A stretch of DNA of 63,543 nt, the filler included, from Reclinomonas americana ATCC 50394 (Eukaryota), in assembly GCA_048213135.1 (NCBI GenBank). It is 4 parts of 2 records of this genome, joined end to end, with 100 filler letters (N's around TTAATTAATTAA, not from the genome) between each part and the next. Parts side by side here need not be neighbours in the genome. Positions count along the whole stretch, not along the records: positions 21,928 to 49,855 come from PS015012.1; 3 more parts are not named here. One strand, 5' to 3'. The notes beneath the pieces were generated by a model that ran no database searches, was not told the DNA's origin, and saw only the letters and a program-made list of their open reading frames with translations. Of the stretch, positions 331 through 58,900 are shown piece by piece (the first letter of the stretch is position 1; every line of letters begins with the position of its first letter). The translations under genes and the position numbers were made by a program.

Positions 331-1210
331 ATGTCCATCGTCCGTCTCTCTGCACTCGCCGTCCTGGCTCTCTTGCTGGTGACTGCTCTGGTGGTGTCGG
401 CGAATGACCAGTCAGTGGGTGCGTGAGAGAGAGTGTTTGCCGTTTTTTTGTGGTTCAACATTTCGCGCGCGCACACACTCTCGCACATCTTTTTGACGCC
501 TCGCGCGCGCCCTCTCTCCTTTCTCTCACTGTGTGTGTGCGTGCCTGCGGTGGGTGGTGTGCGAGAGAGTGTGCACAGCGCGTGCGGTGTGCGGTGGGAG
601 ACGCGTTATATGCGCCTCCGGTTCTAACGGTTCAATTTTGTGTGTGGGTTTTCCGCAGCTGGTGAGGCCGAGGTTGCATGCGTCAGCGCATACACGGAGG
701 CTGCCGCCGAGTGCGAGCGCCAAAACACTGCCCGCAGCGGCCTGCGCCACGCCTGCCTGGAGCGCGCTGAGTTGTCGTACAGCTCGTGCGCCACCAAGCC
801 CATTTCCCTGCAGTCGTGAGTCAAAAGAGAAACGCGTGGTTTGGTTTCCGTGCCCGCAACTCACCTCTTGCTCTTGCTCCACCACAGGTTCACCACCCAC
901 GCCATCAACGAGGAGCACGCCGCTCTCCTGTGCGAGGATGCTTGCGTCGAGGTCGCCTCCACTCACAAGTACGCCTGCGAGGCTCGCCGTGCCCGCGACT
1001 GGGACTACTGCCACGCCACCAACGACCCGGAGCCGACCAACTACATGCCGACCAAGGGCTGCCTGCGCCGCTCGGAGGCCATTGAGTCGCTCTGCGCCAA
1101 GCGCATCGACAACACTCGTGGCTCGTGAGTTTGTGTTGCTTTTCGCGCCACGCACACCCGCACAAAACAGAAATGAGGTCATGGGGAACTCACTGTTGCC
1201 TCAGGTGCAT
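331..1210 (+). CDS. Secreted Cys-rich protein with repeated CX10C spacing (multi-exon, 3' end lost in gap)
   Basis: Signal peptide MSIVRLSALAVLALLLVTALVVSA. GT-AG splicing joins exons into NDQSVAGEAEVACVSAYTEAAAECERQNTARSGLRHACLERAELSYSSC...CEDACVEVASTHKYACEARRARDWDYC...CLRRSEAIESLCAKRIDNTRGSC. Runs into the N-gap at 1211. Confidence 0.75.
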
Positions 1211-2055: not shown

Positions 2056-4957
2056 ATGTCGCTTGCCCGTGTCAACGTCACCGCCAAGGTGGTGGCAGTC
2101 GCCCTCGCTGTGGCGCTGCTGATCGCCACAGCTCATGCTGGTGAGTGTGTGTGTGTGTGTGCACGCAATGAGAAGAAAACGCATCTCGCTCTTCCTTCTC
2201 TCTCGTTCGACACACTCGCACACGACCTCTCGCTGAATGGGCTTCGTTGATGCACTTCACCACCGTCGCATGTGTGCACCTCTCTTTCCCCGCCACGAAA
2301 ATCTTCTTGTTTGCGTGTGTGTGTGGGTGCGTGCATGTGCGACGACGGTTACATTTTGTCGTCTTACACAGTTTTTCGCGCGCGCTGCAAACATTAACTT
2401 GAATATTTTCCCCCGTGTGATGCAGCTTCCCCAAGCACCGTCTACCTGCGTGCCGGTAACACCAAGACCACCCAGGAGGCCATCACCTTCACCGGCATTT
2501 CCCCGGCTGTGACCGCCTCTTCGGTGTTCACCATCCGCAGCGCCGCCGACTGCAGCGGTGCCGACTCAACCACCACCACTCTCGGTGCCGTCACTCTGAC
2601 GGCCGGCGCCTCGCAGGCCCTGACCATCATCTCCACTGGTGAGACCGGTGCGGCGATTCGCTACGTGTGCCACGATCCCGATGGCGCCGGTGCTGCCATC
2701 AACCAGTCCATTGCCAAGATCCAGATCTGTTGCGTCACCAACTTCCCGCTTTTGTTTACTCTTCTCGCCCACGTGCCTCTAACGCGACACCCACCGCCAC
2801 AGTCTCGGCAACCTCGGCCTCGCCGTCGTCGCTGCCCTCGGGCTCTGCCTCGCTCACCCTTACGATCCTGGGCTCCAACCTGGCGGCTCCGTCGTCTGCC
2901 TTCTTTTACCTGACTGCCACCGATCCGGGAGCCAGCAACGTGTGCAGCAACACTGCCGCGACGGGCACTTCTGTGACCTTTGCTCGCGCCTCGGCCACCA
3001 CCATTGTGTTCACGGTGGCCACGGCGACCGGCTTCGCGGGGTCCAGTGCGCAGGCTGTGACCACGCCGACTGCCACCCAGTTCTGCACTGCTCCGGCTGC
3101 CGCAACCTACTTCCTCTGCGGCTCGTTGCGTTTGTCTTGCTCACGCGACTGTGCAAAGAGAGCGCTTTTCCCACTCTTCTCAACGCTGCTTCTTTGCCTG
3201 CGCAGGTTCCAGAACTCTGGCAGCAACAACCTCATCGGCTCTGTGGGCATTGTCGATCCGTCGGCCATGCAGATCGCCTTCACCAACCCGAGCGTGCTCA
3301 GCTACAACGCCGCCAACACCATCACCATCTCCGATGCTGCCAAGTCGCTGAACAGCTGCACTCGCTTCAAGATCATTCGCCCCGACCAGACTTGCGCCGA
3401 CGATGTCAGTTTCGTTCGCGCGCACAATCTCAGATTGATGCATATGCCACTGTACAACTCTGTGAATCTCATTCGTGTTTCTCTGCCCCTGCACAGCCGC
3501 CTCGTCGGCCACGGCCAACACGAACAACGCGGCTGGCTCGCTCGGCACCGTCAACACCTACACGGCTGGCAGCTTTGACGCCGCGAGCTGCTTTGACTCG
3601 TCGACTGGCTGCAACTTCTTCAAGATCTCGTTCACCCCGCAGCAGCCGGGCGCCTTCCGTCTGTGCGCCAGCCGCAACAACTCGGCATTTGCACTCATTC
3701 CAGGCGAGCAGTTTGTGTCCGGCATGCAACAGGCTTCGGGCACTCCGACACCCATCACGACTGTTGCGTCATTTTTGCCAGCAGACATGTTGACCTATAG
3801 GAATCGATCGCGAGAGTGCTCACATGAATTTGTTATCTCCTGCATGTCAGTTTGGTACCGCCGGCACTGTGCGCACTGCCACCGTCTCCGCCACTTTCCC
3901 GGTCGCCTTCCCCGCGATTCCGCGTATCCTTGTTGGCATCACCAACTACGCTGCTGCTTCCACGGCGGTGGACACTGGTGTGTCGTGCGGCGCCCCGGCA
4001 GTGACTGCCACTGGCTTCAGCACCTCTTGCACCGCCCTCCGTAACGCTAGTGTGGGATTGATGCAGCTGTGTGCGTACCCATGTGCCCACTCGCCGCATG
4101 CGACCCAATTTTAGTGGCCTCACATACTTTTTCAATTGTCTCTCCCACCAGCGTACTTTGCCTTCTACGCGCACACGTCCAAGGCGTTCTCGCTGGACGG
4201 ACAGCGCACCCTCAGCAACGGCGCCGCCTGGAACAGCATTGCCACCTCCAAGTCGTCGACCATTGTTGCGTGAATGAGAACAGCTGTGCATGTGTGGATG
4301 TCATACGATGAAACCTAACCTATTTGCACCGCGCAGAACGTCAGCTTGTCGAATGTGTACGCGTTCGGCGCTGCACCCTCTGTGGCAATTGCTTGGATGG
4401 GCGCTGCCACTCGCCGCTTCGGTACCACCACTCTGGACTTCCGCAACGACATCTTCTACAGCTCGATTGCTTCTGCCTCTCCGTCGAACTTCACCCTGCG
4501 CGGTGTGGTCTCTGGCAACACGCGTGTGGACTCGTTCAGCACGCGCTACGTTGCTGGTCCGTCGGCTGCGGACTCCAAGAACACGAGCGGCTTCATTGTG
4601 CTCGCTGGCGGTGAGTGTCGGTCTGCTGCTGCTTTCTGATTGCCTTGTCGCATGATGAACTGAAGTTGGCTGCTCTCCATGTGTGCAGAGGGCGAGGCCA
4701 CCGCCGCTGGCCCGGTGAACCTGACATTCGGCAACAACCGCCGCCTGCTGCAGACCGGCTTTGTTGCGATGGCTTTCATCCGTGGAATGGACAATGCTGG
4801 TGCCGCTGGCGCCTCTGTGAACGTTGTTGTCCCGGCTGTATCCGGCTACGACACCAACGGCAGCGCCACCGACTGGGAGGGTGTGACGATCATTGCTGCT
4901 TCTCTGAGCAACAAGGTGCAAGTGTCGTACATTGCACTCGGCACCCCGGCTCCGTAA
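2056..4957 (+). CDS. Secreted S/T/A-rich protein with IPT/TIG-like domain and three C-terminal H-type-lectin-like domains (paralogue A)
   Basis: Signal peptide MSLARVNVTAKVVAVALAVALLIATAHA; 9 coding exons splice in frame. IPT-like SASPSSLPSGSASLTLTILGSNL. H-lectin-like TFPVAFPAIPRILVGITNY...VTATGFSTSC...LSYFAF plus two further similar units ending RYVAG and VSYIALG. Stop TAA at 4955-4957. Confidence 0.75.
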
Positions 4958-5058
4958 GCGAAAATGACCATGTGGGCTTGTTGCCTGCCTGCCTGCCTGC
5001 CTGCCTTCAGTCTTGTCTGTTTAGCTGCGCCCTCACTTCTTGCTTCAAGCTTTCGTCT

Positions 5059-6405: not shown

Positions 6406-9124
6406 ATGGTGCGTCACACCTCCACCGCTCTGGCAGCGGTCGCCACGATTGTCGTCGTGGCGCTGCTGATGGCCACGGCCCACGCCACCGTCAGTGGTGA
6501 GTGCTTGCTGTTTCTCTTTCGCATTTCGAACATGCATGTGTGGCGCGCACGCTGCACTTTCCCCTCCCTCCCTCCCTCTCCACTTCTTCCTCATTCTCAC
6601 TCTGTCACGAGAATGTGTGTACTTTGTGCGCAATGTGCTGTTTGTTTTCGCGCCCAATTTTCTGATTGCTGTTTCACTCGACAGCCACTCCGGCCACAGT
6701 CTCCCTGGTCGCCGGCAAGACTGTTGCCACCACGGAAACCGTTGCCTTCACCAACATCTCGCCTGCCGTCATTGCCGCCTCCACATTTGCCATTTTCGAC
6801 ACGGCCAGCTGCACTGGCACCACGGGTCTCACCACTCTCGGCGCCATCACCATCACTGCCGGCACCAGCCAGAGTATCCCATTTGTCACCACCAATGAGA
6901 CTGGCTCCGCCACCCACTACCTGTGCTACGACGCCGACGGCGTGGGAGCCACGTACTCGTACGAAATGCTGGCCAAGATCTACGTTTGTTGCGTCCACGC
7001 CCTCTTCGCAGCGTGCACATTGTCAGAGGAGTTGGTGCGCTGGTTTCTCATTCTCTCCCTCTCTCCTGTGTGCAGACTCGGTGACCGCCATTTCGCCTTC
7101 GGCACTGCCAATCGGCGCGGCGTCGCTGTCGCTGTCGGTGTTGGGCAACAACTTTACCGCGCCGACCTCGCCATCGTTCTTCATCGCCGCCGCAAACACG
7201 TGCGCGTCAGCCCTGAGTGGCACGTCGGTGTCTTATACCCGCGTGTCGGCGACGACGGCGGTGTTCACCGTGGCGACAGCCACTGGGTTTTTGCTGCCCA
7301 GTGTGCAGAGTCAGACGGGCTCGCCCGCGTCGTGCACTGCTCCGTCCGCCGCCACTGTCTACCTCTGCGGCTCGTTGCGTTTACTCGCCCAAGGAAGGGG
7401 ATGAGGGTATATGTTGGTACTGATGCTCGCCTGTGTGTTGTCGCTGGTTGCAGATTCCAGAACTCGGCAGCCTTGGTCCTCATCAGCTCTGTTGGCTTGG
7501 TGTCGCCTTCGGCTCTCCAGATCAGCTTTGCCAACCCGAGTGTGCTGAACTTCAACACCGCCAACACAATCACGATTTCTGACGCGGCCAAGTCGCTCAA
7601 CAGCTGCACTCGCTTCAAGGTCGTCCGTTCGGATCAGGCGTGCACCGTCGACGCCAGTTACGACGCTGCGCTCCACCCACTTGTCGCACACCGTGTTCAC
7701 TCACCACGGCACATTAGGCGCGGTGGCCACGGTGAATTCGTACACGGCAAGCAGCTTTGATGCCTCGAATTGCTTCGACTCCTCCAGCGGCTGCAGCTTT
7801 TACAAGATTTCCGTCACGCCGTTGCAAGCTGGCGCCTTGGTGCTATGCGTCAGTCGCAACAACGGTGCGTTCGCGGTTGTTCCTGGCGAGCAGTTCGTCT
7901 CCGGCCTGCAAGTCAACAGTGGCAGTCCCACGGCCAGCACTGCTGTTGCGTTTTCACTCACTGGCTGCTTGCACTTTCTCTCTCTCTCTCGCCAATGGAA
8001 AACTTATCGGGAAACGTGTGCACCACTTCTATTAGTTTGCCGGCAACGCCGGTACCTTGCGCACCGCCAGCATCACCGGCACCTTTGCTATTCCGTTCCA
8101 GAGCAACGTCATTCCTCGCCTTCTGGTTGGTCTGAGCTCGTACAGCGCATCCACGGCCGTGGACACTGGCCTCTCCTGCGGCTCGCCGTCCATCACCGCC
8201 ACCAGTTTCACCACGCGGTGCACTGCTCTGCGCGCTGCCGACATTACCTCTTTCCAACTGTGTACGTCACCACTGCACACGACATCCTCACTGAGCTGTG
8301 TGAATTCACTCTGCGTGCTTGGTATGTGGCAGCGTACGTGGCGTTCTACGTCCACCTGTCCAAGGCTCCGACCTCTGATGGTTCGCGCACACTGAGCAAC
8401 GGTGCTGCGTGGAACAGCACCTCCACTACCAAGTCGTCTACAGTTGTTGCGTTTTCGATCGCCCCTGCTGGTTCATTCGCCCTCTATTGCCGCCTCACCG
8501 TCTCACTGCAGCGAGTGACACTGCCGACAGTGTACTCCTTCTCCACTACGCCGTCGATTGCTGTGGCCTGCGTCGGTATCGCCACTCGCCGTCTGGGAAC
8601 CACCAGCACGGACTATCGCGACGACACGTTCTACGCGTCGATTGCCTCTGCGTCGCAGGCCAACTTTTCTCTCAGCGGCGTCGTCACCGGCAACAGCCGT
8701 GTCGACTCGATCAATAACCGCTACGTTATCGGCCCCGCTGCCAGCGATGCCAAGAACATCAGCGGCTTTGTTGTGCTGACTGGCGGTGAGTGCTCTCCTC
8801 CCTGACACGCGTACGCCTATCGCGCGCGATGCTAAATCGGTGTACGTGCGCGCAGAGGGCGAGTTCTCGTCGGCGACCTCCTCGAACTTTACGTTCGCCA
8901 ACAGCCGTCGCCTGTTGCAGACTGGGCTTGTCGCCTCCGCGTTCATTCGCGGAATGGATAATGTGGGTGCTGCCGGTGGTTCCGCTGCGGCCACGATCAC
9001 CACAGTTGTCGGATACTCGAGCACCTCCAGTGGAACCGACTTTGACGGCGTGACCATCACCGTCACGGCAGTCGGCCGCAAGGTGCAAGTCTCCTTCATC
9101 GCCATCGGTGTCCCGTCTCCGTAA
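6406..9124 (+). CDS. Secreted IPT plus triple H-type-lectin-like protein (paralogue B, tandem duplicate)
   Basis: Signal peptide MVRHTSTALAAVATIVVVALLMATAHA. Same intron positions as 2056-4957 and near-identical blocks (NPSVL..N.ANTITISDAAKSLNSCTRFK, PGEQFVSG, SGF.VL.GEGE, RRLLQTG, FIRGMDN, KVQVS.IA.G). Stop at 9122-9124. Confidence 0.75.
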
Positions 9125-9444
9125 GAGGGACGACGGTCGACGCACAAGAAAGCAATTGTGCCTGTCCTTCCTCCCCCTACTCTCTCCCTTTCGAATTCCC
9201 CTTCATCCCCGACGCTGTCTACATCTTCGTGTGCATACTCTCGTGCCTTGATTTCTATCGGAAGATGCAACCACGAATAGTAAACGCGGCTTGCCTGGGT
9301 GTGTGTTGAATGTGCGTCATTAATAAGAACGCAGTGATGCACATAAATGCAAACGCGATACAAGGAAAAAGAAAGCCATCAAAAAAGCTTTGTCGACCGT
9401 TGTCAAGCATTGCACGAGAGATTGCAAGTTTTTTTTTTGCACGC

Positions 9445-40112: not shown

Positions 40113-40252
40113 GTAATAATGAAGATAAGTTTTGTAATCCACATACAAATGACAGACAGTGTGAGAAGGAAAAATGAGTAGAGTAGAATGGTAAGGGAAT
40201 AGTTAACGAGACACCGCTGGTCTTAACAGCGCGCATCCGTCACTGGGCAGAA

Positions 40253-43200
40253 TCATGCTTTCGGGAACGCAGTGCCGGACTTGGGAAGCGCCGGCGCAGC
40301 TGGTGGCTGTGCACGGCGTAACCGAGCTGAGGTGGGAGAAAGAGATTGAAGGTGAGCAAATTGCTTCATCATTTGTTTGTCCAACGCAGCAGAGCGACAC
40401 ACCTTGGCACTTGCCCACCGCCTTCACCAACTGGTCTGGTGCAGCGGACGCACCAAAGTCGCCGCTGTCACAAATGTTGACCAGCTGCTCGTACTTGTAG
40501 ATGAAGAAACGAGCCTGCTGGCACTGCCGAGCCGCAATTGCTGACATTTGTGCGCGTGGGCACACAATTGACTCCATGCGCTTCAGTCCAAACAACCGCC
40601 GTCGCACGCGATGGCAGTCGGGTGTCGGATACTCAGGAATCACGGGTTCCGCTGGCTTGGGTGCCTGCGGCATCGGAGGCGGCGGTGGCGGTGGCATGTA
40701 CGGGAATGGCATTGGCTGGTACGGGAACGGCATCTGCAGAAAGAGAAAGTGAGCAGCCGAGTATATGGCACGCGCAGATGAGAGAGCACAGCAGACTCAC
40801 CTGTGGTGAAGGGTCGTCCATCGGGGGCAGCCGGTCGATCGCTGCGTCGCAAGCACGTGAGACACACATGTTGATCACTGCACGTTTTGGGAAAGGAAAA
40901 AACAACTCACGTGCAATACCGAGACGGCAGCGGCGGTACATGGAACGCAGGCGCTGCACATGCTGTTGGAGGTACACGCATCGGCGGCTCGGCGGGAAGT
41001 CCGAGCACACGAAGCGCGCTCGGCGGCGAGCCTCGGTCAAGTGACCGCGAATCAGACCGCAGGCGGGCACCATACCGCCGTCGGCGTCACCGTCACTGGG
41101 ACCGAAGCGGCTGCGGCTGCGACGGCGGCGCCAGCGACGCTCCTGGTCGTTGTCGAAATCGCCATCATCTCGTCGTGGGCGGCGGCGACGGCGGAGATCG
41201 AGTTCGCCGCGCTCACGTGCACGACGAATCGCACGGCGGACGGCACGACGGGCAATGCGATTCACGACCCGGCGCAGCCATCGCTTGCTCGGTCGCGAGC
41301 GGCAGCGGGGCTTGGGAGCAGCGGGTGCTGGCTCCTCCGGCTCTGATTGCGGCTTTGGCTCCGGTTCCGGCTCAGGCTGCTTGGCGGGCCGAGGCTGACG
41401 TTGGGGTTCCGGCTGTGGCTCCGGCTCATTGTCACGAATGTCAATCACCGCACCACTGTCGCCCAAGGCGTTGCCGTTGTCGTCCGAGAGGCGGGGCATC
41501 CGTCGGCGAATGCGGACTGTGCGTAGGTGCGTCGTCAGACAAACTGCAACGCGAACGGGGAGGAAAAAAAAACTCGGCGACACATACCGAATCCACTGTC
41601 GTCATCGGCGACGGCGCGGAACGATCGAGCACCAAAGCACGCCTGTCGGCGGTGAATCAGTGCACCCGTCAGCATGCCGCGCAGGCGGTGGCACACGCGG
41701 AAAGCGATCGAGGAGCGATCCTTCAGGCTGCAGGCACCGCGGGCCACACGACGGAGGAGGCGAATGCGGACGCTCAGCTTGCGGCACACAGCCGGTGCGC
41801 GACGAGAACGGCGGCGAGAGCGCACGCGCTCGTCCACAATGATCACTGTGTGTGAGAGAGAGGGAGAGATTCACAGTGAGCGCGAGTGGCGTCTGGGGAG
41901 TCGACACCCCAAAAAGGGTACACACCGGGCGAGTCAATGTCGCCTCCGCGACGGCATCGATTGCGGAGGCGGCGATTGGCGGCACGGCATCGGCGCAGCA
42001 ATCGCTTGCACTGAGGTGAGCCACCGGCACCGCGCCGACGGCATGCGCGACCGGCCACACGACGAACTCGTCGCAGGCGACGCGACAGGCGACCGCAACG
42101 GCCACGGGGTTGCTCGATGTCGTCATCCTGGTCCACGTCGTCGCTGTCGCCCGCATCACCACGGAAGCGACGCATGCGGCGAGAGCGACGAGCAAAGCGA
42201 CCGTTGGCGTTGCTGTCGTCGTCATCGTCGCCAAAGTCGCCGTCCACATTGCGGAGGCGACGGCGCATGCGGCGGCTGGAAGCACGGAGGCCGCCACGAC
42301 GAGAATCACCAGCGGCGTCATCGTCGCCGCCATCCATATCACCGTCAATGTCGTCGAGGCGACGGCGCAAGCGTCGAAGCAGTCGGCGCTGGCGACGGCG
42401 ACGCGGAACCTCCACATCGTCTTCATCAGCATCGACCGCGCGGCGTCGAATTCGGCGACGGCGCAGTGGGGCATCGGGATTCGCTCCACTGTTGTCGTTG
42501 TCACCGTTGTCGTTGCTGTTGGCATCGTCGCGCGCAGGTGCAGGTTGTTCTGCCTGCTGCGATTGCTGCGGCCTGTCGCCCTCAGCAGTAGGGGCTGCGA
42601 GGCAAAGAGAGAGAGAGACTCGAGTCAGCAGCAGTGGAACAACAAAATACTGACACAAGGGAGAGACGCGCAACTGTCAGCGGGGCGACCGCGGCACTTG
42701 TTGAGCCGGATCTTGAAGGCGGCAATGTCGGCCTTGAGCTCGTGGCACGCACTGGCCTCTTGCAGAGAGTCGCGCGAGTACGGGCAGTGCAGCCTGGCGC
42801 GCTCGCGGAATCGGCGAATGGCAGCTCGCAGCTTGCGGCACTTGCGGCCGCCGCGAGAACGACGGCGCGCTGCAATGAGCCACATGGGGGGTCAGACACC
42901 GACAACACGAGCGACAACGATAACGGCACACCAACCTCGCTTATTGCGTCGCACACCGCTGCCGGCGTTGTCGTCCTCGTCGTCGTCGCCATCTCGGCGG
43001 CGGCGGCGCTGTCGGCGTCGGCGCTTGGCACCACACTTGGCGTTATCGCCCTCTTCGTCGTCGTTGCTGCGAGAGCGACGGCGACGAGCTCGGCGAGACA
43101 CCTTCTTGCCGCTGTCGTCATCTTCATTGTTCTCGTCGTCGTCGTCGTCGGCACGGCGACGGCTGCGGCGACGGCGTTCGGAAGCGTTCAGCATCTGCTC

Positions 43201-46200
43201 GGCCTGCTTCATCTCCTCCGCCTCCTCCTCCTCTTGCTGTGCGTCTTCGTCCACTGCAAATGTGACCACAGCACGTGAATGATAGGGGGGCTTACACGGC
43301 AGGGAGAATGGTGGAGGGGGAGACGCACCGTCGACTCCGTTCTCCACGGTCTGCGTGTCGACTTGGTCCTGCTCCTGCTGCTGTTGTTGCATAGCAGCAA
43401 ACGGCAGCGGTGCAAGGGTCACTGCGTATGGGCAGACAAGGAGGTCAGTACGCAAGCGTGGTAGCATGCACCGTGCGACTGGTACTCACCAGGCGCCTCT
43501 CCGTCCATTTGTTCATCTGCAATAACACACACCACCAGATCAGTTACAAGACTGCAGCTGCTGCTGGCATTCGAGCGAGGGAGACGCAACAGGCGGCAAC
43601 CAGCGTCAGAGGCATGAGATTCGTGTTGAGGTTGTTGAGCTTCATGGCTGCGGCGGCAAATAAAGGGTCAGTCAGCCATCAAGACGGCGAGGGAAAACCA
43701 TTATTAACACAACAAACCAGTGTGAGCATTGATGAGGTTGAGGCGAGCGTTCTCTGTTGCGTGCAGCGAGTCAGAACAAGTCCGGTATCAGTCACAGAAA
43801 GAGGGATGATGCAGCTCACCAGTTTGAAGACGCAGGTGCTCCGCAAGCGACACTGTATTATTGCACACGGTACACAGTGAGAAACTGGAATACAGGATAC
43901 AAGCAGTGTCCGCCAAATGCGCAACAGAAATTGCGAGTCTCACGGCGGCGAGCAGCGCGGAGGCCGGCCACAGCGGCACGCAAGCGACGGCACTTGGTCT
44001 TGGCGACCTTGGACTGCGGCAACAGACAGCATTTGAGTTACTCATCACGTGAGGGAAAAACATGTCGTCACACTATACGAACCTTGCGCTTGCACGTGCG
44101 CTTCGTCGTCTTGCGAAGCACCTTCAGCGCGCACTTGTAGATCCTGCCGCACGTCTTCTTGCGCGAGCACTTCTTCAGGCGTTTCTGTTGCACGGCAAGC
44201 ACCACGAGTGAGCAGTTGGCGGGGATGCGCACAACAACAACGCATTACGCAACTGAGATGCGAGCAGAGATGGCACGCTTCGGGCTCTTCTTGCGCAGGC
44301 GCTTGGCCACTGCGTGGCGCACAAAAAAAACAGCAAACGTGAATCCTTCGAGTGGGGTTGCACATACACGCGCACGCAAGTCAACGTACCTCGGCGGACG
44401 ACCTTGCGGCACCGCTTGCTTGCTCGCTTCGCCTTTCGGGCTTTCCTTGCCCTCGCTCTCGCCCTCGCCTTGCGCCTCTTCTCGGCTTCGGAGTCACTCT
44501 CGTCCTCGTCGTCGTCTTCGCCACCGCGGCGTCGGCGGCGGCGACGGAGGCCCTTGCTGTCGCCATCCTCGCCGTCGTCTTCACCGTCGCCACCGCGGCG
44601 CTTGCGAGCGGCACCCTTGCCACCTTCCTCGCCGTCGTCTTCACCGTCGCCACCGCGGCGCCTGCGAGCGGCACCCTTGCCGCCCTCCTCGCCGTCGACG
44701 TCGTCACTGCGACTCTTCCCGACACCGCCCTTCTTCTTCTTGTCGGCAGCCTCGTCATCGTCGTCGTCATCATCACCACCGCGACCGGCGGCTCGGCGCT
44801 TGCCGGCGTCGCCTCGGCGTCCGCCGCTCTTCTTCTTGCCGTCCTCGGTATCGTCGTCGTCGTCACCGTACTTGTCGACGGTCTTGCGGAAATCGTCGAG
44901 CAGCTCAGCAGCCTCGCGCTGATCGCGCGGTGAGCCGCGCAACGCCTCCTTCAGGTCCTTCATCAGCGACTTGTCAATGATGCGCTCCGTTGAGTATTGC
45001 ACTGCAAAGGCCATGATGGATAATGTGTGAGACAAACAAATCTACAGTGCATGCAAGGCACTGACGGGGTAGAGGCGACCAACCGTCCTCGTCGCGGAGA
45101 GCCGGAATGTGTCGGCGCAAGTGGGCAGCTGCAAGTGAGGCGGTGCAAAGTGAGCGAGTGGCGAGCAAGTGAGCGATGGCACGGGGGATGGACACACGAA
45201 CCGAAGCGGCGGAACGAGTCCTTGATGCCTGGGAGACATGCATGTGAGTAAACAGCGAGGTGAGGTGGCGATGACTGCAGCAGTAGGCGTACCGCAGCGG
45301 AGGGCAGCCGCTGTTATGCAAACGAAAATAAAGTGAGCACAATCCATTCGAGCACATGCTTGAACTTGTCACACTGCGCTCACCGAGACGATGCATGCGG
45401 ACGCGCAGCAACTGGGTCTGCATCTTGGCCACGCGAGCATTCTTCCGCAGCTCCTTGACGAGCTGACGCGTTCGCTTGGTAATGACCGAAGAGGGCTTCG
45501 GTCCGACAGCTGCTGTTCTCCACGAGTCAGCCACAACACAACCACACATATTGGACGGTGCGTTATTCGCACCTGCACGGGACATTGCCACACGCAAACG
45601 GCGATGGCAAATGGCGGCCTGACGCCGCGTCTGGCGCAGTTGGTCGACCACACGCTGCAGCGCCTGTCGCTGCCGGTCGACCAGACGACGCTCCTGATCG
45701 AACTGGCGAGCAAAGTTCTCCTGCGCCTCCTGGAACCGGCGCTCCAGCATTTGCAGGCGGCGCTGCGACAAGTGGTACGCGCGACGCATCACTTGGTTGG
45801 CACGCTCGAGGCGCTGAGCATTGACGGTGGAGTCCTTATTGTTCCGGTTCACATCGCTCAGCTTGTCTCGCAGCTGCGTAATCCGCTGACGCATCGCCTC
45901 AATCTCTTGCACGCGGGCAGCCAGCTGCACACAGATGAATGAGTGCATCACCTCCACCACGCGGACGACAGATCGTACACGGAGGAGACCTTTTCGCGCA
46001 AGTCTTGCAGCTGACCGGCAAACGCATTTGTGCGCTGCGAGATATCAAGCCCCGAGTTGCGCAGTCGCTGATTCTCCTCCCGCGCTCGCTGCAGATCAGC
46101 ACGCGCCTCCGCCAGTTGCGACTTGACCACATACTGCTGCGTGCTCATCTGGCTCAACTCTCCCTGCGTCTCGCGCAGCCTCTGCTCCAACGAGCGCACA

Positions 46201-46626
46201 CGCCGTGCNNNNNNNNNNNNNNNNNNNNNNNNNNNNNNNNNNNNNNNNNNNNNNNNNNNNNNNNNNNNNNNNNNNNNNNATTGGCCGACAGCACGCCCGC
46301 CCACGGACCATCCGCCTCCGCCAAGTCTACACACACAAGAGACGCGTCAGCCGTGCCACACAGTGCGCGCACACACACAGGGAGAGTGCAGGCAATGCAA
46401 CTCTCAAACGTGGCCGCCGACACATCCGCCTCCTCCAGCAACACCAGCGGATCCACTCGCTCATCGTCTTCCACAAACTACAGCACACACGCACGCACAC
46501 ACAATGAACACACAAACACGCAGAGACTCTCCCTCACACTGAAAACCACCAAACCTCTGTCGCCTGCACACACGCACACAAGAGCAGTGCCAGCAGTGGC
46601 AGCAGCAGCCACTGCTGCGCCCTCAT
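40253..46626 (-). CDS. Giant secreted precursor: signal peptide, acidic pro-segment, coiled coil, Arg/Asp charge blocks and repeated four-Cys modules (about 20 exons, one gap)
   Basis: Signal peptide MRAQQWLLLPLLALLLCACVQA. Exons can be joined through GT-AG introns in one frame via ORFs 45948-46208, 44974-45960, 44175-45035, 42892-43467, 42625-42885, 41843-42673, 41535-41846, 40633-41583 and 40203-40733 to ...KSGTAFPKA*. It could also be two genes. Confidence 0.65.
44540..44700 (-). repeat. 60-bp coding tandem repeat (GEEGGKGAARRRRGGDGEDD, about 2.5 copies)
   Basis: Lines 44581 and 44641 are nearly identical. Confidence 0.9.
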
Positions 46627-46849: not shown

Positions 46850-48691
46850 ATGCGGAGTGGGTGGCTGCTTGTCACACTCGGCATGCTTGCGCTGCTGCTG
46901 CTGCTGTGCTTGAGCGCAGCACGAGCAGAGGAGGAGGAAGTTGCGCACTCTCTGATATGTGTGTCTCTCTCTGTGTGTGTTTGTGTGACACACTCACACA
47001 CACGTGCGCGCGCAGTTGGAGCAACAAGGAGAGCAGTACGACTTGGAGACACACGACACAGACGACGTTGGCGAGGAATGTACGTGAGCACAAACACACA
47101 CACTCATGTGTACTCTGTCTCTCACAACACACTCTTCTCTCTCACACACACAGCGTTTGTGGAGAGTGGGCGTCGTCGAGTCAACTCGTGGGCGCGCTCT
47201 GTGGTGAACCTGNNNNNNNNNNNNNNNNNNNNNNNNNNNNNNNNNNNNNNNNNNNNNNNNNNNNNNNNNNNNNNNNNNNNNNNNNNNNNNNNNNNNNNNN
47301 NNNNNNNNNNNNNNNNNNNNNNNNNNNNNNNNNNNNNNNNNNNNNNNNNNNNNNNNNNNNNNNNNNNNNNNNNNNNNNNNNNNNNNNNNNNNNNNNNNNN
47401 NNNNNNNNNNNNNNNNNNNCAGATTCAGATGCACCGCGCGGGTCGCGAGTTGAACTCGGAGCGCGAGGGGCGTCTGGCCGCAGAGCGACGAGTGCGCGAG
47501 CTGGAGCAGCAAATGGTGAACCTGCAAATGTCGCAGCAGTCGGGCAGCATGAGGTCGATGCAGATGCAGGAGCAGCTGGCGTCGTGCAGAAAGGAGCTGG
47601 ATGCGGCACGCAGGGTGCGGAATACGGAGGACTCGCGCATTGAGAAGCTGCGCGCGATGGCGCAAAAGTTCCGCGAGATGCTGCTGGCCGATCGCCAGCG
47701 CAAGCTGCAGGCGGCCAAGACCATTGAGCGGCTGCAGGCGCGCATGCGTGCCTATCGCAAGGCGTTCTTGCGGTCCAAGGGCGTTCTCTGTTGCGTCATT
47801 CGCTCCTCTTCTNNNNNNNNNNNNNNNNNNNNNNNNNNNNNNNNNNNNNNNNNNNNNNNNNNNNNNNNNNNNNNNNNNNNNNNNNNNNNNNNNNNNNNNN
47901 NNNNNNNNNNNNNNNNNNNNNNNNNNNNNNNNNNNNNNNNNNNNNNNNNNNNNNNNNNNNNNNNNNNNNNNNNNNNNNNNNNNNNNNNNNNNNNNNNNNN
48001 NNNNNNNNNNNNNNNNNNNNNNNNNNNNNNNNNNNNNNNNNNNNNNNNNNNNNNNNNNNNNNNNNNNNNNNNNNNNNNNNNNNNNNNNNNNNNNNNNNNN
48101 NNNNNNNNNNNNNNNNNNNNNNNNNNNNNNNNNNNNNNNNNNNNNNNNNNNNNNNNNNNNNNNNNNNNNNNNNNNNNNNNNNNNNNNNNNNNNNNNNNNN
48201 NNNNNNNNNNNNNNNNNNNNNNNNNNNNNNNNNNNNNNNNNNNNNNNNNNNNNNNNNNNNNNNNNNNNNNNNNNNNNNNNNNNNNNNNNNNNNNNNNNNN
48301 NNNNNNNNNNNNNNNNNNNNNNNNNNNNNNNNNNNNNNNNNNNNNNNNNNNNNNNNNNNNNNNNNNNNNNNNNNNNNNNNNNNACCCCGCACAGGCAAGG
48401 TGCGCGGTGCGATGCGCACACAAGCCGACACCTTCAGCGACCAGTTCGCCAAGGAGCGTGAGCTGGTGGACAAGGAGCGTCGCATCATTGAGAAGTTGGT
48501 CGGCAGACTGCGCACGCATCGCCACGAGCTCGGCGTCTGCAAGGCCACTCTCAAGTCACACCTCGCTGTCTTGCCCAAATGCGTGGTGAACAACAAGAAG
48601 AAGGAGGACGAGGAGGATGGTGCGTACGTGCCCGTGTCGCTCTCTCTCTCTCCCGTTCGTGCTGCTGACTTGACAGTGCGCAGACGATTGA
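46850..48691 (+). CDS. Secreted coiled-coil protein, paralogue of the N-terminal part of the divergent giant gene (gapped)
   Basis: Signal peptide MRSGWLLVTLGMLALLLLLCLSAARA, acidic segment, heptad-rich exons and FSDQFAKERELVDKERRIIEKLVGRLRTHRHELGVC; ends EEDDD*. Confidence 0.7.
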
Positions 48692-48986
48692 ACTAAGTGG
48701 TTTTTTCCCGCGGCAAGCGAGGGTGGCTTGTTGGTACGTACACGCCGCCACGCTTGCTCGNNNNNNNNNNNNNNNNNNNNNNNNNNNNNNNNNNNNNNNN
48801 NNNNNNNNNNNNNNNNNNNNNNNNNNNNNNNNNNNNNNNNNNNNNNNNNNNNNNNNNNNNNNNNNNNNNNNNNNNNNNNNNNNNNNNNNNNNNNNNNNNN
48901 NNNNNNNNNNNNNNNNNNNNNNNNNNNNNNNNNNTGATCGCATCACATACTCACCACACGCGCGCAAACACAGACGAATTTGTTGA

Positions 48987-55923: not shown

Positions 55924-58900
55924 ATGTCGTCGCGGTCGCCTCCGCCTTTACTGGTGGGCGACGGACGGTCCACGACTCCCACCTCGGTGACCTCGTCAGT
56001 GCTGCAGTCGCGCTCGTCGCTGCCTCCGCAGGCTCCACACGCTCAATTCGCCGCGCGTGGCAGTCTCGCTCTGGTGGGCTCTGCGGACACAGGCGCAGGC
56101 AGTGGTGGTGGTGAGCGACCCAGCACACCAGTGAGTCAAGGCGCACACTCGGGTGCAGCAGCAGCAGCGCCTCAGCGCAGCGATTCGCTGCGTGGAACCC
56201 TGACGCAGGTTCGTCTCTCTCTCTCACACACACACACGCACTCTCCCATGCACACATGTGTCTCATTCATCTCACAGGAGGAGTTGGAGGGCACCGATCG
56301 CTTTCTCCGCTTTGGCGATCGCATTGTGTTGATGCACGCCGACATGCGTGGCTTTATCACCAGCGAAGGGTGTGTGTGTTGGGGAGAGAGAGCAGCTATG
56401 TGTGTGTGTGTGTGTGTTTGTTGTACTCACATCTAGTCATGTCTCGCAGCACGGTCGACGATCGTGTCGGTCTCACTGCCGGCACTCCTGGCAACCTGCC
56501 GCTCACTCCGTCTGGTGAGCTCCCTCCTCCATCTCCGTCTCCGCCATCTCCTCTTCGCGCTCACTGGGCGTCGCTGTGCAGATGTGGTGTACGAGTTGAC
56601 TCCGATCACCTCGTACAAGGCGCAGTCGGCCTTTACGCGGCGCCTGAAGAAGGCCATTGATGACTTTGCGCCGGATCTCACGGCAGTCGGTCGCGCCGAG
56701 GTGCTGCGCTCGTTTGATGCGCGCAGACCGCCTCCGTTCCTGCGAGTGGTGCGTTCGCTCGTCCATGTCTGTGCCTGATATCTACGCTGCTCACCGCATT
56801 GCGCCCAACAGGATCAACACGAGGAGCGCCGCCTGGAGGAAGTCGGGGACGCCAACGACAAGATCGGTTCGTTCAACCTGGGCCAGATTGTCGGCACGTC
56901 GCTCGAGCTGTACAAGCGGCGTCTCGAGGGCCAGTCGAAGAGTCGCACGCTGGAGGAGTTGATGGAGTTGCAGGTGCGCTGTTGTGCATGAGATTGTGAG
57001 GGAGAGAGAAACAAAGGCGCTCATTCACCTCGTGGGCAGACTCGCGCCGAGTCCGAGCTGGCACAAAACAACGCCGAAGACGAGCGTGCGAACGGTCGAC
57101 CGGTCACCTACGGCACTGTGGTGCAGCTGCGACACGTTCGCTGGGGTCACTACGTGACCGTGCAGAGTGACATTGCGGAGACGGATGCCGCGTGCACTCG
57201 AATTGCGCTGCAGCCGACGGCCAGCTCGCGCTCCTTCTTCGTCATCTCGGCCGGCAGTCGGTTCCGCGCCGAGGGCGAGCGCGTGCAGATTGGCGACCTG
57301 GTGTCGTTCCTCAACCGCAAGTTTCGTCTGTACATTCACGCCAGCCGGGCGGCGATTCGCGACCGCTTCCGTCGTCTCGAGGTCAACGGCTCCTTTGACG
57401 AGACGCACTGGCTGCTGCTGCTGTACTCGCGAGCGCGTGCGGCTGGCGACGAGGACAAGCTGATGGCTGGCGACACGGTACGCATCTTTCATCCGCAGCG
57501 CGATGGCTACGTGGCGCGCGTCGTCGGTGCACCGGAGGATCTGTATGGTTTGTTGCGCGCACACCTATGCTCTGTTGATGATGAAAGAGTCACCTCACCA
57601 CCACCACCACCACCACCACCACAGTCTCCATCAACGAGCAGGAGAAATCGGAACTCTCGCGACCGATCCTGCCCGAGGCCGATTTCGAGATTGAGCGTGA
57701 GCTGCCGGTGGCCGGTGGATTGATGCGCTTCGGGCAGACCTTCCGCCTGCGTCACGTGCTCACCGGTGCGTATCTGCGAGTGGAGCCAAAGGTGGTGGAC
57801 GAGTCGTTGCAGCCGGCGGACTGGTTCGGCGCCGTGGTTCGCGAGCGGCGCTTCACTCGCGCCCACGTGCTGCGCGATCAGAGCGACGACGACGACGACG
57901 ATGACGAATATGCAGGCGGCATGGGTGGCGACGGTGACTTGGACAGCCTCGGCCTTCCGCCGTCGCCGACGTCGCTAATGTCTCCGGGAGCGACTGACGA
58001 TGACGCGGCGCGCATGTTTGACGATGACGATGATGATGAGGGTGGTGGCGGCATGGTGGCCTCGATGAATCCCCTGCAGCGGAATCAGCGACAGAATTCC
58101 GCACGCACCCTTGGCGTCGAGAGGCGCCGATCCATTCGCGCATCGTCCACGTCCATGGAGATTGGCAAAGGTGTGTGTGCCTCGCCAGCGATTATGATGT
58201 ATTGAGTCTTACGCCGTCATTTCCCCGCAGGCTACTTTGCTCGCCGCCGTCCGAGTGCCGTGGAGGCTGCAGAGCCGATCCCAGTCGTCGACGTGTCGGA
58301 TCTGGTGGTACCGGTCAAGGTCCGTTTCTCCGACGACCGAGCGGATCCCAACTGCCTGTTTGCCTTTGCGCCGCTGCAGTTTGCGGTGCGTTTTTCTCGC
58401 GTGGCTGTTCGCCGCGCGTACCAGCGTGATTTCTCACTGGTGTGCATGACGCCGCGTACGATGCAGGCCGACGACGATGGTCGCAGCGTGGTGCGAGCCG
58501 ACGCTCTCGTCAGTCTGCGACACGCCGCTACCGGTCTGTACCTGTCGAATGTCGAGTCACCGATTTGTTTCCGAGGCGTCTCGCGACGCAAGCACACGTC
58601 CGCCCCGGTGAGTCCTTCACCAACTCCATCGGTCCACGCACAATCCTGACTCGCCTTTGTCCTCTCACACAGCTGTGCCTGTCCACCATTCCCGATCCCA
58701 ACACGGCATTCCGCGCGTCGCGAACACTGCAGAGCGATGTGCAGGATCTGTACATTACGACGCTCACCATTGGAGTTGCGGCGACGTGGTGGTGGTGGCA
58801 ATCATCAGCCGTCCTTACCCACTCACGTGCTTGATGACACCCGACAGTACTTGGATCAGCTGCGCTCGGCACTGAACGAGAACGCTCGCGATCGGCTCGT

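What the first reader, a model, noticed from the sequence alone, without database searches (positions are those of the whole stretch)
40460..42845. Five copies of an unrecognised cationic four-cysteine helical-hairpin module
The C-terminal half of the giant minus-strand gene repeats C-X17-C-X8-12-C-X16-17-C: CRKLRAAIRRFRERARLHC-x12-CHELKADIAAFKIRLNKC; CGRLSRRLRRVRRVAGRAC-x10-CKRLLRRCRAANRRLRNRC; CRKLSVRIRLLRRVARGAC-x12-CHRLRGMLTGALIHRRQAC; CGLIRGHLTEARRRARFVC-x8-CVYLQQHVQRLRSMYRRC; CHRVRRRLFGLKRMESIVC-x12-CQQARFFIYKYEQLVNIC. A degenerate Lys-rich sixth copy lies near 43940-44160. Spacing is conserved while sequence diverges, and the X17 segments are amphipathic and Arg-rich. Inference: these are disulphide-stapled helical hairpins that polybasic cleavage could release as membrane-active peptides (prey killing or antimicrobial) or as structural units. 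I do not recognise this module as a named family.
Basis: partly seen in the sequence, partly recalled or inferred. Interest (0 to 1): 0.8.

Follow-up and report, generated by a model that had tools for sequence, protein, structure and literature searches.

The report
Orphan cysteine-stapled hairpins in secreted proteins
A single-celled eukaryote has a modelled 25-exon gene for a very arginine-rich, probably secreted 1,519-residue protein that carries five copies of an unrecognised four-cysteine module predicted to fold as a two-helix hairpin, a second gene in the same genome carries two more, and the protein likely helps build or glue an outer coat rather than release antibiotics, though this is untested.

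Summary
The five C-X17-C-X(8-12)-C-X(16-17)-C modules lie in frame in a 25-exon, 1,519-aa gene model with a signal peptide. A 97% identical second copy keeps all 48 splice dinucleotides, and the modules differ by 9 silent to 1 replacement codon. The modules also share a coiled-coil hydrophobic pattern and are predicted as antiparallel hairpins whose register fits I-IV/II-III disulphides. The scan noted this gene before on other DNA of this genome (e1-9771491, no relatives found). New here: a second signal-peptide gene (contig C14) has two more modules, one 37% identical to module 1, so this is a small family. No relative was found outside this genome. The peptide-release idea is only partly supported: basic sites are as dense inside modules as outside, bulky residues sit mostly on the hairpin's inner face, and modules are 16% of a chain otherwise made of coiled coils and Arg/Asp blocks. 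Best reading (0.45): a secreted, cationic matrix or glue protein. Earlier notes call the organism a shell-dwelling jakobid; I could not verify that. Expression, disulphides and function are untested.

The parts
40253..46626 (-). Whole gene model: 25 exons, 24 GT-AG introns of 63-91 nt, 1,519 aa, net charge +141, 19% Arg
   Evidence: second copy on G000 contig C7; no transcript seen
46555..46626 (-). Exon 1: predicted signal peptide, the only long hydrophobic segment (no later transmembrane or GPI-type segment)
   Evidence: hydropathy scan; no SignalP-type tool available
44928..46282 (-). Long predicted coiled-coil region (aa 65-352)
   Evidence: weak coiled-coil-type Pfam hit below cut-off; strongly conserved between copies
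44484..44927 (-). First Arg/Lys-Asp block linker (aa 353-500)
   Evidence: charge segregation above 1000 of 1000 shuffles
43945..44483 (-). Lys/Arg-rich helical region with six Cys (aa 501-607, net +52), including the degenerate sixth copy
42841..43176 (-). Second Arg-Asp block linker (aa 716-805)
42694..42840 (-). Module M1, C-X17-C-X12-C-X16-C, net +8; closest to module B of the C14 gene
41954..42097 (-). Module M2, C-X17-C-X10-C-X17-C with a fifth Cys, net +20
41637..41786 (-). Module M3, C-X17-C-X12-C-X17-C, net +13
40927..41061 (-). Module M4, C-X17-C-X8-C-X16-C, net +9
40617..40926 (-). Pro-rich spacer between M4 and M5 (aa 1367-1424)
40470..40616 (-). Module M5, C-X17-C-X12-C-X16-C, net +8, the most hydrophobic (35% bulky residues)

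Best explanation
The gene model encodes a probably secreted, strongly cationic protein whose five four-cysteine modules are predicted to be disulphide-locked two-helix rods, and it likely works intact or in large pieces as a building or gluing component of an extracellular matrix (shell, holdfast, cyst wall or discharged granule content). Shown: gene copy, frame, selection, module signature, second gene. Predicted: signal peptide, hairpin fold, I-IV/II-III staples. Inferred mechanism: the chain enters the ER, the hairpins are oxidised into stiff rods with a basic surface, the alternating Arg and Asp blocks condense the protein in secretory vesicles, and after release the rods bind acidic blocks, anionic glycans or surfaces while coiled coils and the 12 spare cysteines cross-link chains.
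For: Modules are 241 of 1,519 aa; the coiled-coil and Lys-rich parts are as conserved as the modules (pN/pS 0.03 vs 0.04) and even the linkers are constrained (0.25). Four of four Arg/Asp linker stretches are more charge-segregated than 1000 of 1000 shuffles. Bulky residues fill 39 of 56 heptad a/d positions vs 31 of 168 others, i.e. mainly the inner face of the hairpin. Twelve Cys lie outside the staples and the signal peptide. No transmembrane or anchor segment. The C14 gene repeats the design: signal peptide, acidic, Pro-rich and Lys/Arg helical blocks, two modules, one only +3. A module-and-disordered-linker layout builds tintinnid ciliate shells (PMC13408134, passages). If the organism is Reclinomonas-like, it has a substrate-attached lorica (PMC11145212, passages).
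Against: No expression, localisation or assembly data. The organism's identity, and so the lorica, rests on earlier AI notes; my own tests named no lineage. The chain has 37 furin-like sites, 34 of them not inside modules, so it could be cut up. Modules are divergent (18-33% identity) and cationic, as in defence-peptide arrays. Net +141 means the acidic blocks cannot neutralise the chain alone, so an unidentified anionic partner is needed. Signal-peptide proteins can also go to lysosomes (PMC5890168, passages).
Confidence: 0.45

Rival explanations
1. The protein is a multi-peptide precursor: basic-site proteases trim away the disordered linkers and leave protease-resistant cationic hairpins that permeabilise or kill bacteria in food vacuoles or outside the cell.
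For: Modules are +8 to +20 with amphipathic helices. A furin-like site ends within 25 aa upstream of 4 of 5 modules (P 0.03 against the whole chain), and such sites are rarer inside modules (1.2 vs 2.7 per 100 aa). Precedent: naegleriapores and Dictyostelium Apl precursors (PMC5890168, passages); vicilin-buried hairpin peptides (10.1101/2020.05.26.118075, passages).
Against: The upstream enrichment vanishes against the C-terminal half (P 0.25); only 2 of 5 modules are flanked on both sides; M5 has no upstream site within 122 aa. Dibasic sites are as dense inside modules (17 in 241 aa). Bulky residues are 15-35% and mostly on the inner face. Module B of C14 is only +3. 84% of the chain is not module yet is constrained.
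Confidence: 0.25
2. The intact protein is a secreted polyanion trap rather than a load-bearing material: a cationic mucus or vacuole-lumen scaffold that binds bacterial surfaces, DNA or polyphosphate and helps catch or clump prey.
For: Net +141, Lys-rich block +52, M2 +20; five spaced basic rods give multivalent binding; the assembly also holds bacterial contigs, as expected for a culture fed on bacteria (inference).
Against: It does not explain the long conserved coiled coil or the spare cysteines better than the matrix reading; no binding data.
Confidence: 0.2
3. The protein is not secreted, or the cysteines bind metal instead of forming disulphides, or the exons belong to more than one gene.
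For: No transcript links exon 1 to the modules; several small exons around aa 300-330 and 608-670 were chosen by hand.
Against: One open frame over 25 exons with 63-91-nt introns; all 48 splice dinucleotides kept in the second copy; 5 of 5 exon indels are multiples of three while 16 of 21 intron indels are not. The C14 gene independently joins a signal peptide to the modules. No CX2C pairs; the Cys pairs lie five helical turns apart.
Confidence: 0.1

Closest known systems
Twin CX9C (CHCH) proteins, MIA40 substrates (PMC12114033, passages read)
   Same: Two antiparallel helices, each with two Cys, closed by two disulphides around a loop of about 8-12 residues.
   Different: Spacing here is X17/X16-17 (about five turns, not three); the host is a signal-peptide protein of 1,519 aa, not a small mitochondrial intermembrane protein; no Pfam match.
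Vicilin-buried peptides / alpha-hairpinins (10.1101/2020.05.26.118075, passages read)
   Same: Arg-rich helix-loop-helix with ladder-like I-IV/II-III disulphides, several copies in a large secreted precursor.
   Different: Those have paired CXXXC motifs and sit in plant vicilin precursors cut by asparaginyl endopeptidase; here the staples are 17-18 residues apart, with a full coiled-coil core, and release is unshown.
Saposin-like precursors: naegleriapores, Dictyostelium Apl (PMC5890168, passages read)
   Same: Protist signal-peptide precursor with several Cys-stapled helical domains.
   Different: SAPLIPs have six Cys and four or five helices; this module has four Cys and two predicted helices, and the linkers are very long charged blocks.
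Tintinnidorins of tintinnid ciliate shells (PMC13408134, passages read)
   Same: Protist structural proteins made of fixed-length modules alternating with variable disordered linkers, stored in secretory vesicles.
   Different: Their modules are 78-aa beta-sheets rich in Trp and Tyr; these are about 49-aa helical and Arg-rich (4 Trp, 14 Tyr in the chain). An analogy of layout only.

Membership tests
Twin CX9C / CHCH | Two CX9C (or CX3C) motifs | tested here: not met
   Spacing X17 and X16-17 in all seven modules; definition from PMC12114033
Twin CX9C / CHCH | Helical hairpin closed by two disulphides | tested here: inconclusive
   Hairpin predicted, register fits; disulphides not observed
Twin CX9C / CHCH | Match to a Pfam CHCH-type profile | tested here: not met
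   0 families at E <= 5 for 5 of 5 modules
Vicilin-buried peptides | Pair of CXXXC motifs | tested here: not met
   No CX3C spacing among the 34 Cys of the model; definition
Vicilin-buried peptides | Embedded in a vicilin precursor | tested here: not met
   No cupin hit in the six long ORFs of this gene that were scanned; the model is coiled coil and low complexity
Vicilin-buried peptides | Released by proteolysis | not testable with these tools
   Needs peptidomics; site statistics are equivocal
Saposin-like proteins (SAPLIP) | Six conserved Cys, four or five helices | tested here: not met
   Four Cys, two helices; definition
Saposin-like proteins (SAPLIP) | Signal-peptide precursor with several domains | tested here: met
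   (predicted from hydropathy)
Saposin-like proteins (SAPLIP) | Lipid or membrane interaction | not testable with these tools
   Needs a liposome assay
Tintinnidorin | 78-aa beta-sheet modules rich in Trp/Tyr | tested here: not met
   Helical 45-59-aa modules; definition
Tintinnidorin | Forms the shell | not testable with these tools
   Needs shell proteomics
GATA-type zinc finger (the commonest CX17C hit in the paper listing) | CX2C pairs flanking the long spacer | tested here: not met
   No CX2C pair in the model

The most novel reading that the evidence does not exclude
These genes encode the first molecular parts of a jakobid shell or holdfast: an independently evolved biomaterial in which long disulphide-stapled cationic helical rods, coiled coils and Arg/Asp block polymers condense in vesicles and set outside the cell, defining a new 'twin CX17C' domain family.
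Probability: 0.2. Interest if true: 0.75.

Novelty: new variant of a known kind. Interest (0 to 1): 0.45.

Why it matters
It adds a long-armed member (about five helical turns between staples) to the disulphide-laddered helical hairpins known from CX3C and CX9C proteins, and shows that it is a reusable module in at least two probably secreted proteins. If it builds the shell or glue of a deep-branching flagellate, it gives a molecular handle on a structure for which my paper searches found no described component, and a candidate underwater-setting protein. If the modules are released, it would be a new antibacterial scaffold of a bacteria-eating protist. Both are cheap to test with 50-residue peptides and proteomics.

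Tried and rejected
No RNA holder was listed for 40200-45000; no evidence either way. Pfam: nothing for the modules; only weak low-complexity or coiled-coil hits below cut-off for two long ORFs of the gene. PDB sequences: 0 at E <= 10. 1.84 billion representatives with the five-module profile: 2 hits at E <= 0.001, both unrelated tandem-repeat proteins without the motif. Seven-row alignment against proteins of 124-2000 aa: none at E <= 1 among 7,982 scored (weak evidence). ESM Atlas: no usable hit for M1 or the M5 exon. Metagenome contigs: M5 0 of 400 candidates; M1 1 of 596 in a scan stopped at 30 of 64 parts, a chance 10-residue match at the end of a bacterial P-loop-type ORF with one Cys. 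Prokaryote genome contigs: 0 of 600. Fold searches gave only generic helical hairpins: no Foldseek match at E <= 0.001, best Z 8.5 (rmsd 1.8, 57 aligned) with no gap to unrelated rows; no CHCH or hairpinin entry was among the rows shown, which does not exclude them. Own-genome searches with seven module queries and one Lys-rich stretch gave 9 weak hits outside the two genes' own places or between them for the first time: L008, L009, L012, L020, L021, L022, L038, L040, L041; only L009 (C14) was real (L022 checked only by the profile scan). These searches score few candidates and miss intron-split copies, so two genes is a lower bound. M5 homodimer prediction returned no answer (score 0.00). Lineage: HSP90 best single-copy hit 78-79%, unnamed, and it groups only with that record (tree of 100 sequences, hits under 250 aligned aa left out, Tsukubamonas among them; no jakobid among the labelled rows); RPL27 best 70%; the short COX1 contig looks plant-type (recalled). 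Paper searches for CX17C spellings, Reclinomonas or jakobid with lorica, extrusome or secreted cysteine-rich proteins listed no description of this module or of lorica proteins; most subscription papers, including the original ultrastructure papers, are not in the library.

Full report
Setting. The window comes from a 108-Mb assembly of 16,441 contigs that also holds bacterial contigs. The window itself is eukaryotic, about 60% GC, with short spliceosomal introns and neighbours such as an aminotransferase, an IP3 receptor, Yip1 and a weak SF-assemblin hit. A collinear second copy of the region lies on contig C7, 96.7% identical over 11.4 kb; I take it as the other haplotype (inference).

Gene model. 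Reading the three minus-strand frames gave one open model: ATG at 46626, stop at 40255-40253, 25 exons, 24 GT-AG introns of 63-91 nt, 1,519 aa. One short N run in an early exon is absent from the second copy and was left out. The second copy keeps all 48 splice dinucleotides; substitutions are 76 in 4,561 exon bases against 75 in 1,743 intron bases; 5 of 5 exon indels are multiples of three, 16 of 21 intron indels are not (the last 35 bases of the gene did not align). A few small exons were picked by hand and some donors have alternatives. Four donors are of the GTTGC type after a base other than G, the class that earlier notes describe for this genome. No RNA run was listed, so expression is not shown.

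The observation. All five quoted modules are present with the stated spacings, each within one exon. The motif count of 5 was never approached in 100,000 shuffles (maximum 2). The copies share more than cysteines: leave-one-out profile scores exceed Cys-fixed shuffles for all five, weakest for M4 (35 of 2000). Helix 1 reads roughly C-x-[KR]-[LIV]-x3-[LI]-x2-[LVF]-[RK]-x2-A-x2-[VAH]-C, and bulky residues occupy 39 of 56 heptad a/d positions against 31 of 168 others (P 4e-12). Between the two copies the modules differ by 9 silent codons and 1 conservative replacement (pN/pS 0.04, P 4.5e-5 against neutrality); the difference from the linkers (23 silent, 18 replacement) is not significant (P 0.07). 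The Lys-rich 'sixth copy' keeps three cysteines in register and a weak profile signal but lacks the fourth.

Structure. AlphaFold2 models M1 as two helices, 4-26 and 31-54 (pLDDT 86.9). In all seven modules the residue numbers of Cys1+Cys4 equal Cys2+Cys3 within one, as an antiparallel hairpin with I-IV and II-III bonds requires. The bonds themselves are inferred; the tool gives no distances. Fold searches return only generic hairpins.

A second gene. A weak own-genome hit of M1 (E 0.22, 31%) led to contig C14, about 390600-395300, plus strand. Its model (about 1,200 aa, last exons uncertain) begins with a hydrophobic signal segment and has two modules. Module B is C-X17-C-X12-C-X16-C once a 70-nt intron in its last helix is removed; it aligns without gaps to M1 at 37% over 54 aa (two-sequence E 8.8e-7), scores 29.5 bits on a profile of the five window modules against 0 of 2000 shuffles, and its first exon finds M1 as its only non-self hit (E 0.14-0.22). 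Module A has a 22-residue loop, scores 9.3 bits (13 of 2000 shuffles) and is also predicted as two helices (pLDDT 79.4). Two such motifs arose in 1 of 100,000 shuffles of that protein. The rest of the C14 protein is acidic, Pro-rich and Lys/Arg helical blocks, like the window protein in design but with no significant alignment outside the module. An earlier report on what appears to be the other copy of the window gene (e1-9771491) found no relatives; this gene is the addition.

Outside relatives. None: Pfam, PDB sequences, 1.84 billion representatives, the 5.8-billion word search, ESM Atlas, metagenome and prokaryote contigs. The library search needed about 36 bits and module B scores 29.5, so relatives as distant as the C14 gene would have been missed.

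The whole protein. After the signal come an acidic stretch, a coiled coil of about 290 aa, an Arg/Lys-Asp block linker, a Lys-rich helical region with six Cys (+52), a second helical and Gln-rich stretch, and then the modules separated by Arg/Asp block and Pro-rich linkers of 29-172 aa. Net charge is +141. The four linker stretches tested are more charge-segregated than every one of 1000 shuffles; the coiled coil is not. Coiled coil and Lys-rich parts show 20 silent and 2 replacement codons. Twelve cysteines lie outside the staples and signal. There is no membrane anchor.

Peptide release? The chain has 37 R-x-K/R-R sites, 3 inside modules, and 115 dibasic sites, 17 inside (7.1 vs 7.7 per 100 aa). 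Four of five modules have a furin-like site within 25 aa upstream (P 0.03 against the whole chain, 0.25 against the C-terminal half), two of five downstream. The chain could be trimmed, and folded hairpins might survive, but there is no dedicated flanking signal. Precedents exist: saposin-type precursors in amoebae (PMC5890168, passages) and vicilin-buried hairpins (10.1101/2020.05.26.118075, passages). The module fails the defining cysteine patterns of both, and of twin CX9C proteins (PMC12114033, passages).

Mechanism chosen. I favour a secreted matrix or glue (0.45): stiff basic rods and coiled coils joined by charge-block spacers that would condense in vesicles and cross-link outside. Tintinnid shell proteins show that protists build shells from module-and-linker proteins, with unrelated chemistry (PMC13408134, passages). 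That charge-block proteins phase-separate is my general knowledge; one search gave only a search listing. Rivals are released antibacterial hairpins (0.25), a cationic prey or polyanion trap (0.2) and a wrong model or metal binding (0.1).

Organism. Earlier notes call it a shell-dwelling, Reclinomonas-like jakobid. My tests neither confirmed nor contradicted this: HSP90 and RPL27 have no close named relative. Reclinomonas americana feeds from a lorica attached to the substrate (PMC11145212, passages; 10.64898/2026.10.08.757618, passages; PMC4772810, passages), and some jakobid genera have extrusomes (PMC10139444, passages). The lorica reading therefore depends on an unverified lead. No supplements were read for any paper; those of the two bioRxiv preprints are closed and are unlikely to bear on the claims.

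Verdict. A real, conserved, unrecognised module in a small family of probably secreted proteins; its fold is a longer variant of known disulphide-laddered hairpins, and its function is open. Searches named under Tried and rejected found no description in the held papers. Interest 0.45.

Noticed in passing
window 331-1125 (+): Small signal-peptide gene with Cys pairs spaced X10 (C-X10-C-X13-C-X10-C, then X3, X10, X10, X16, X10): likely another kind of stapled helical hairpin in a secreted protein; no Pfam hit for the ORFs scanned.
   Followed up: partly
window about 2070-5020 and 6410-9130 (+): Two tandem, similar signal-peptide genes rich in Ser/Thr/Ala, each with a weak H-type lectin Pfam hit below cut-off.
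   Followed up: no
L013:8612-9013 (G000 C14): The C14 protein has further Lys-rich helical stretches with single Cys pairs (X60, X33, X11), possibly hairpins with one staple; no further copy found.
   Followed up: partly
window 41190-41306 (-): A basic helical stretch after a lone Cys (aa 1241-1278) resembles by eye a stretch of the C14 protein (aa 546-574); blastp did not report it.
   Followed up: partly
window 47420-48693 (+): Divergently oriented neighbour encoding coiled-coil-like exons; no Pfam hit.
   Followed up: no
window gene and C14 gene introns: 4 of 24 and 3 of 15 modelled donors begin GTTGC, mostly after a base other than G, in line with earlier notes on a shifted donor class.
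   Followed up: partly
L034 (G000 C14726): 597-base contig with the start of a COX1 gene that looks plant-mitochondrial (recalled likeness), perhaps carried over from culture medium.
   Followed up: no
window 56992-58202 (+): Exons of an IP3/ryanodine receptor-type gene.
   Followed up: no
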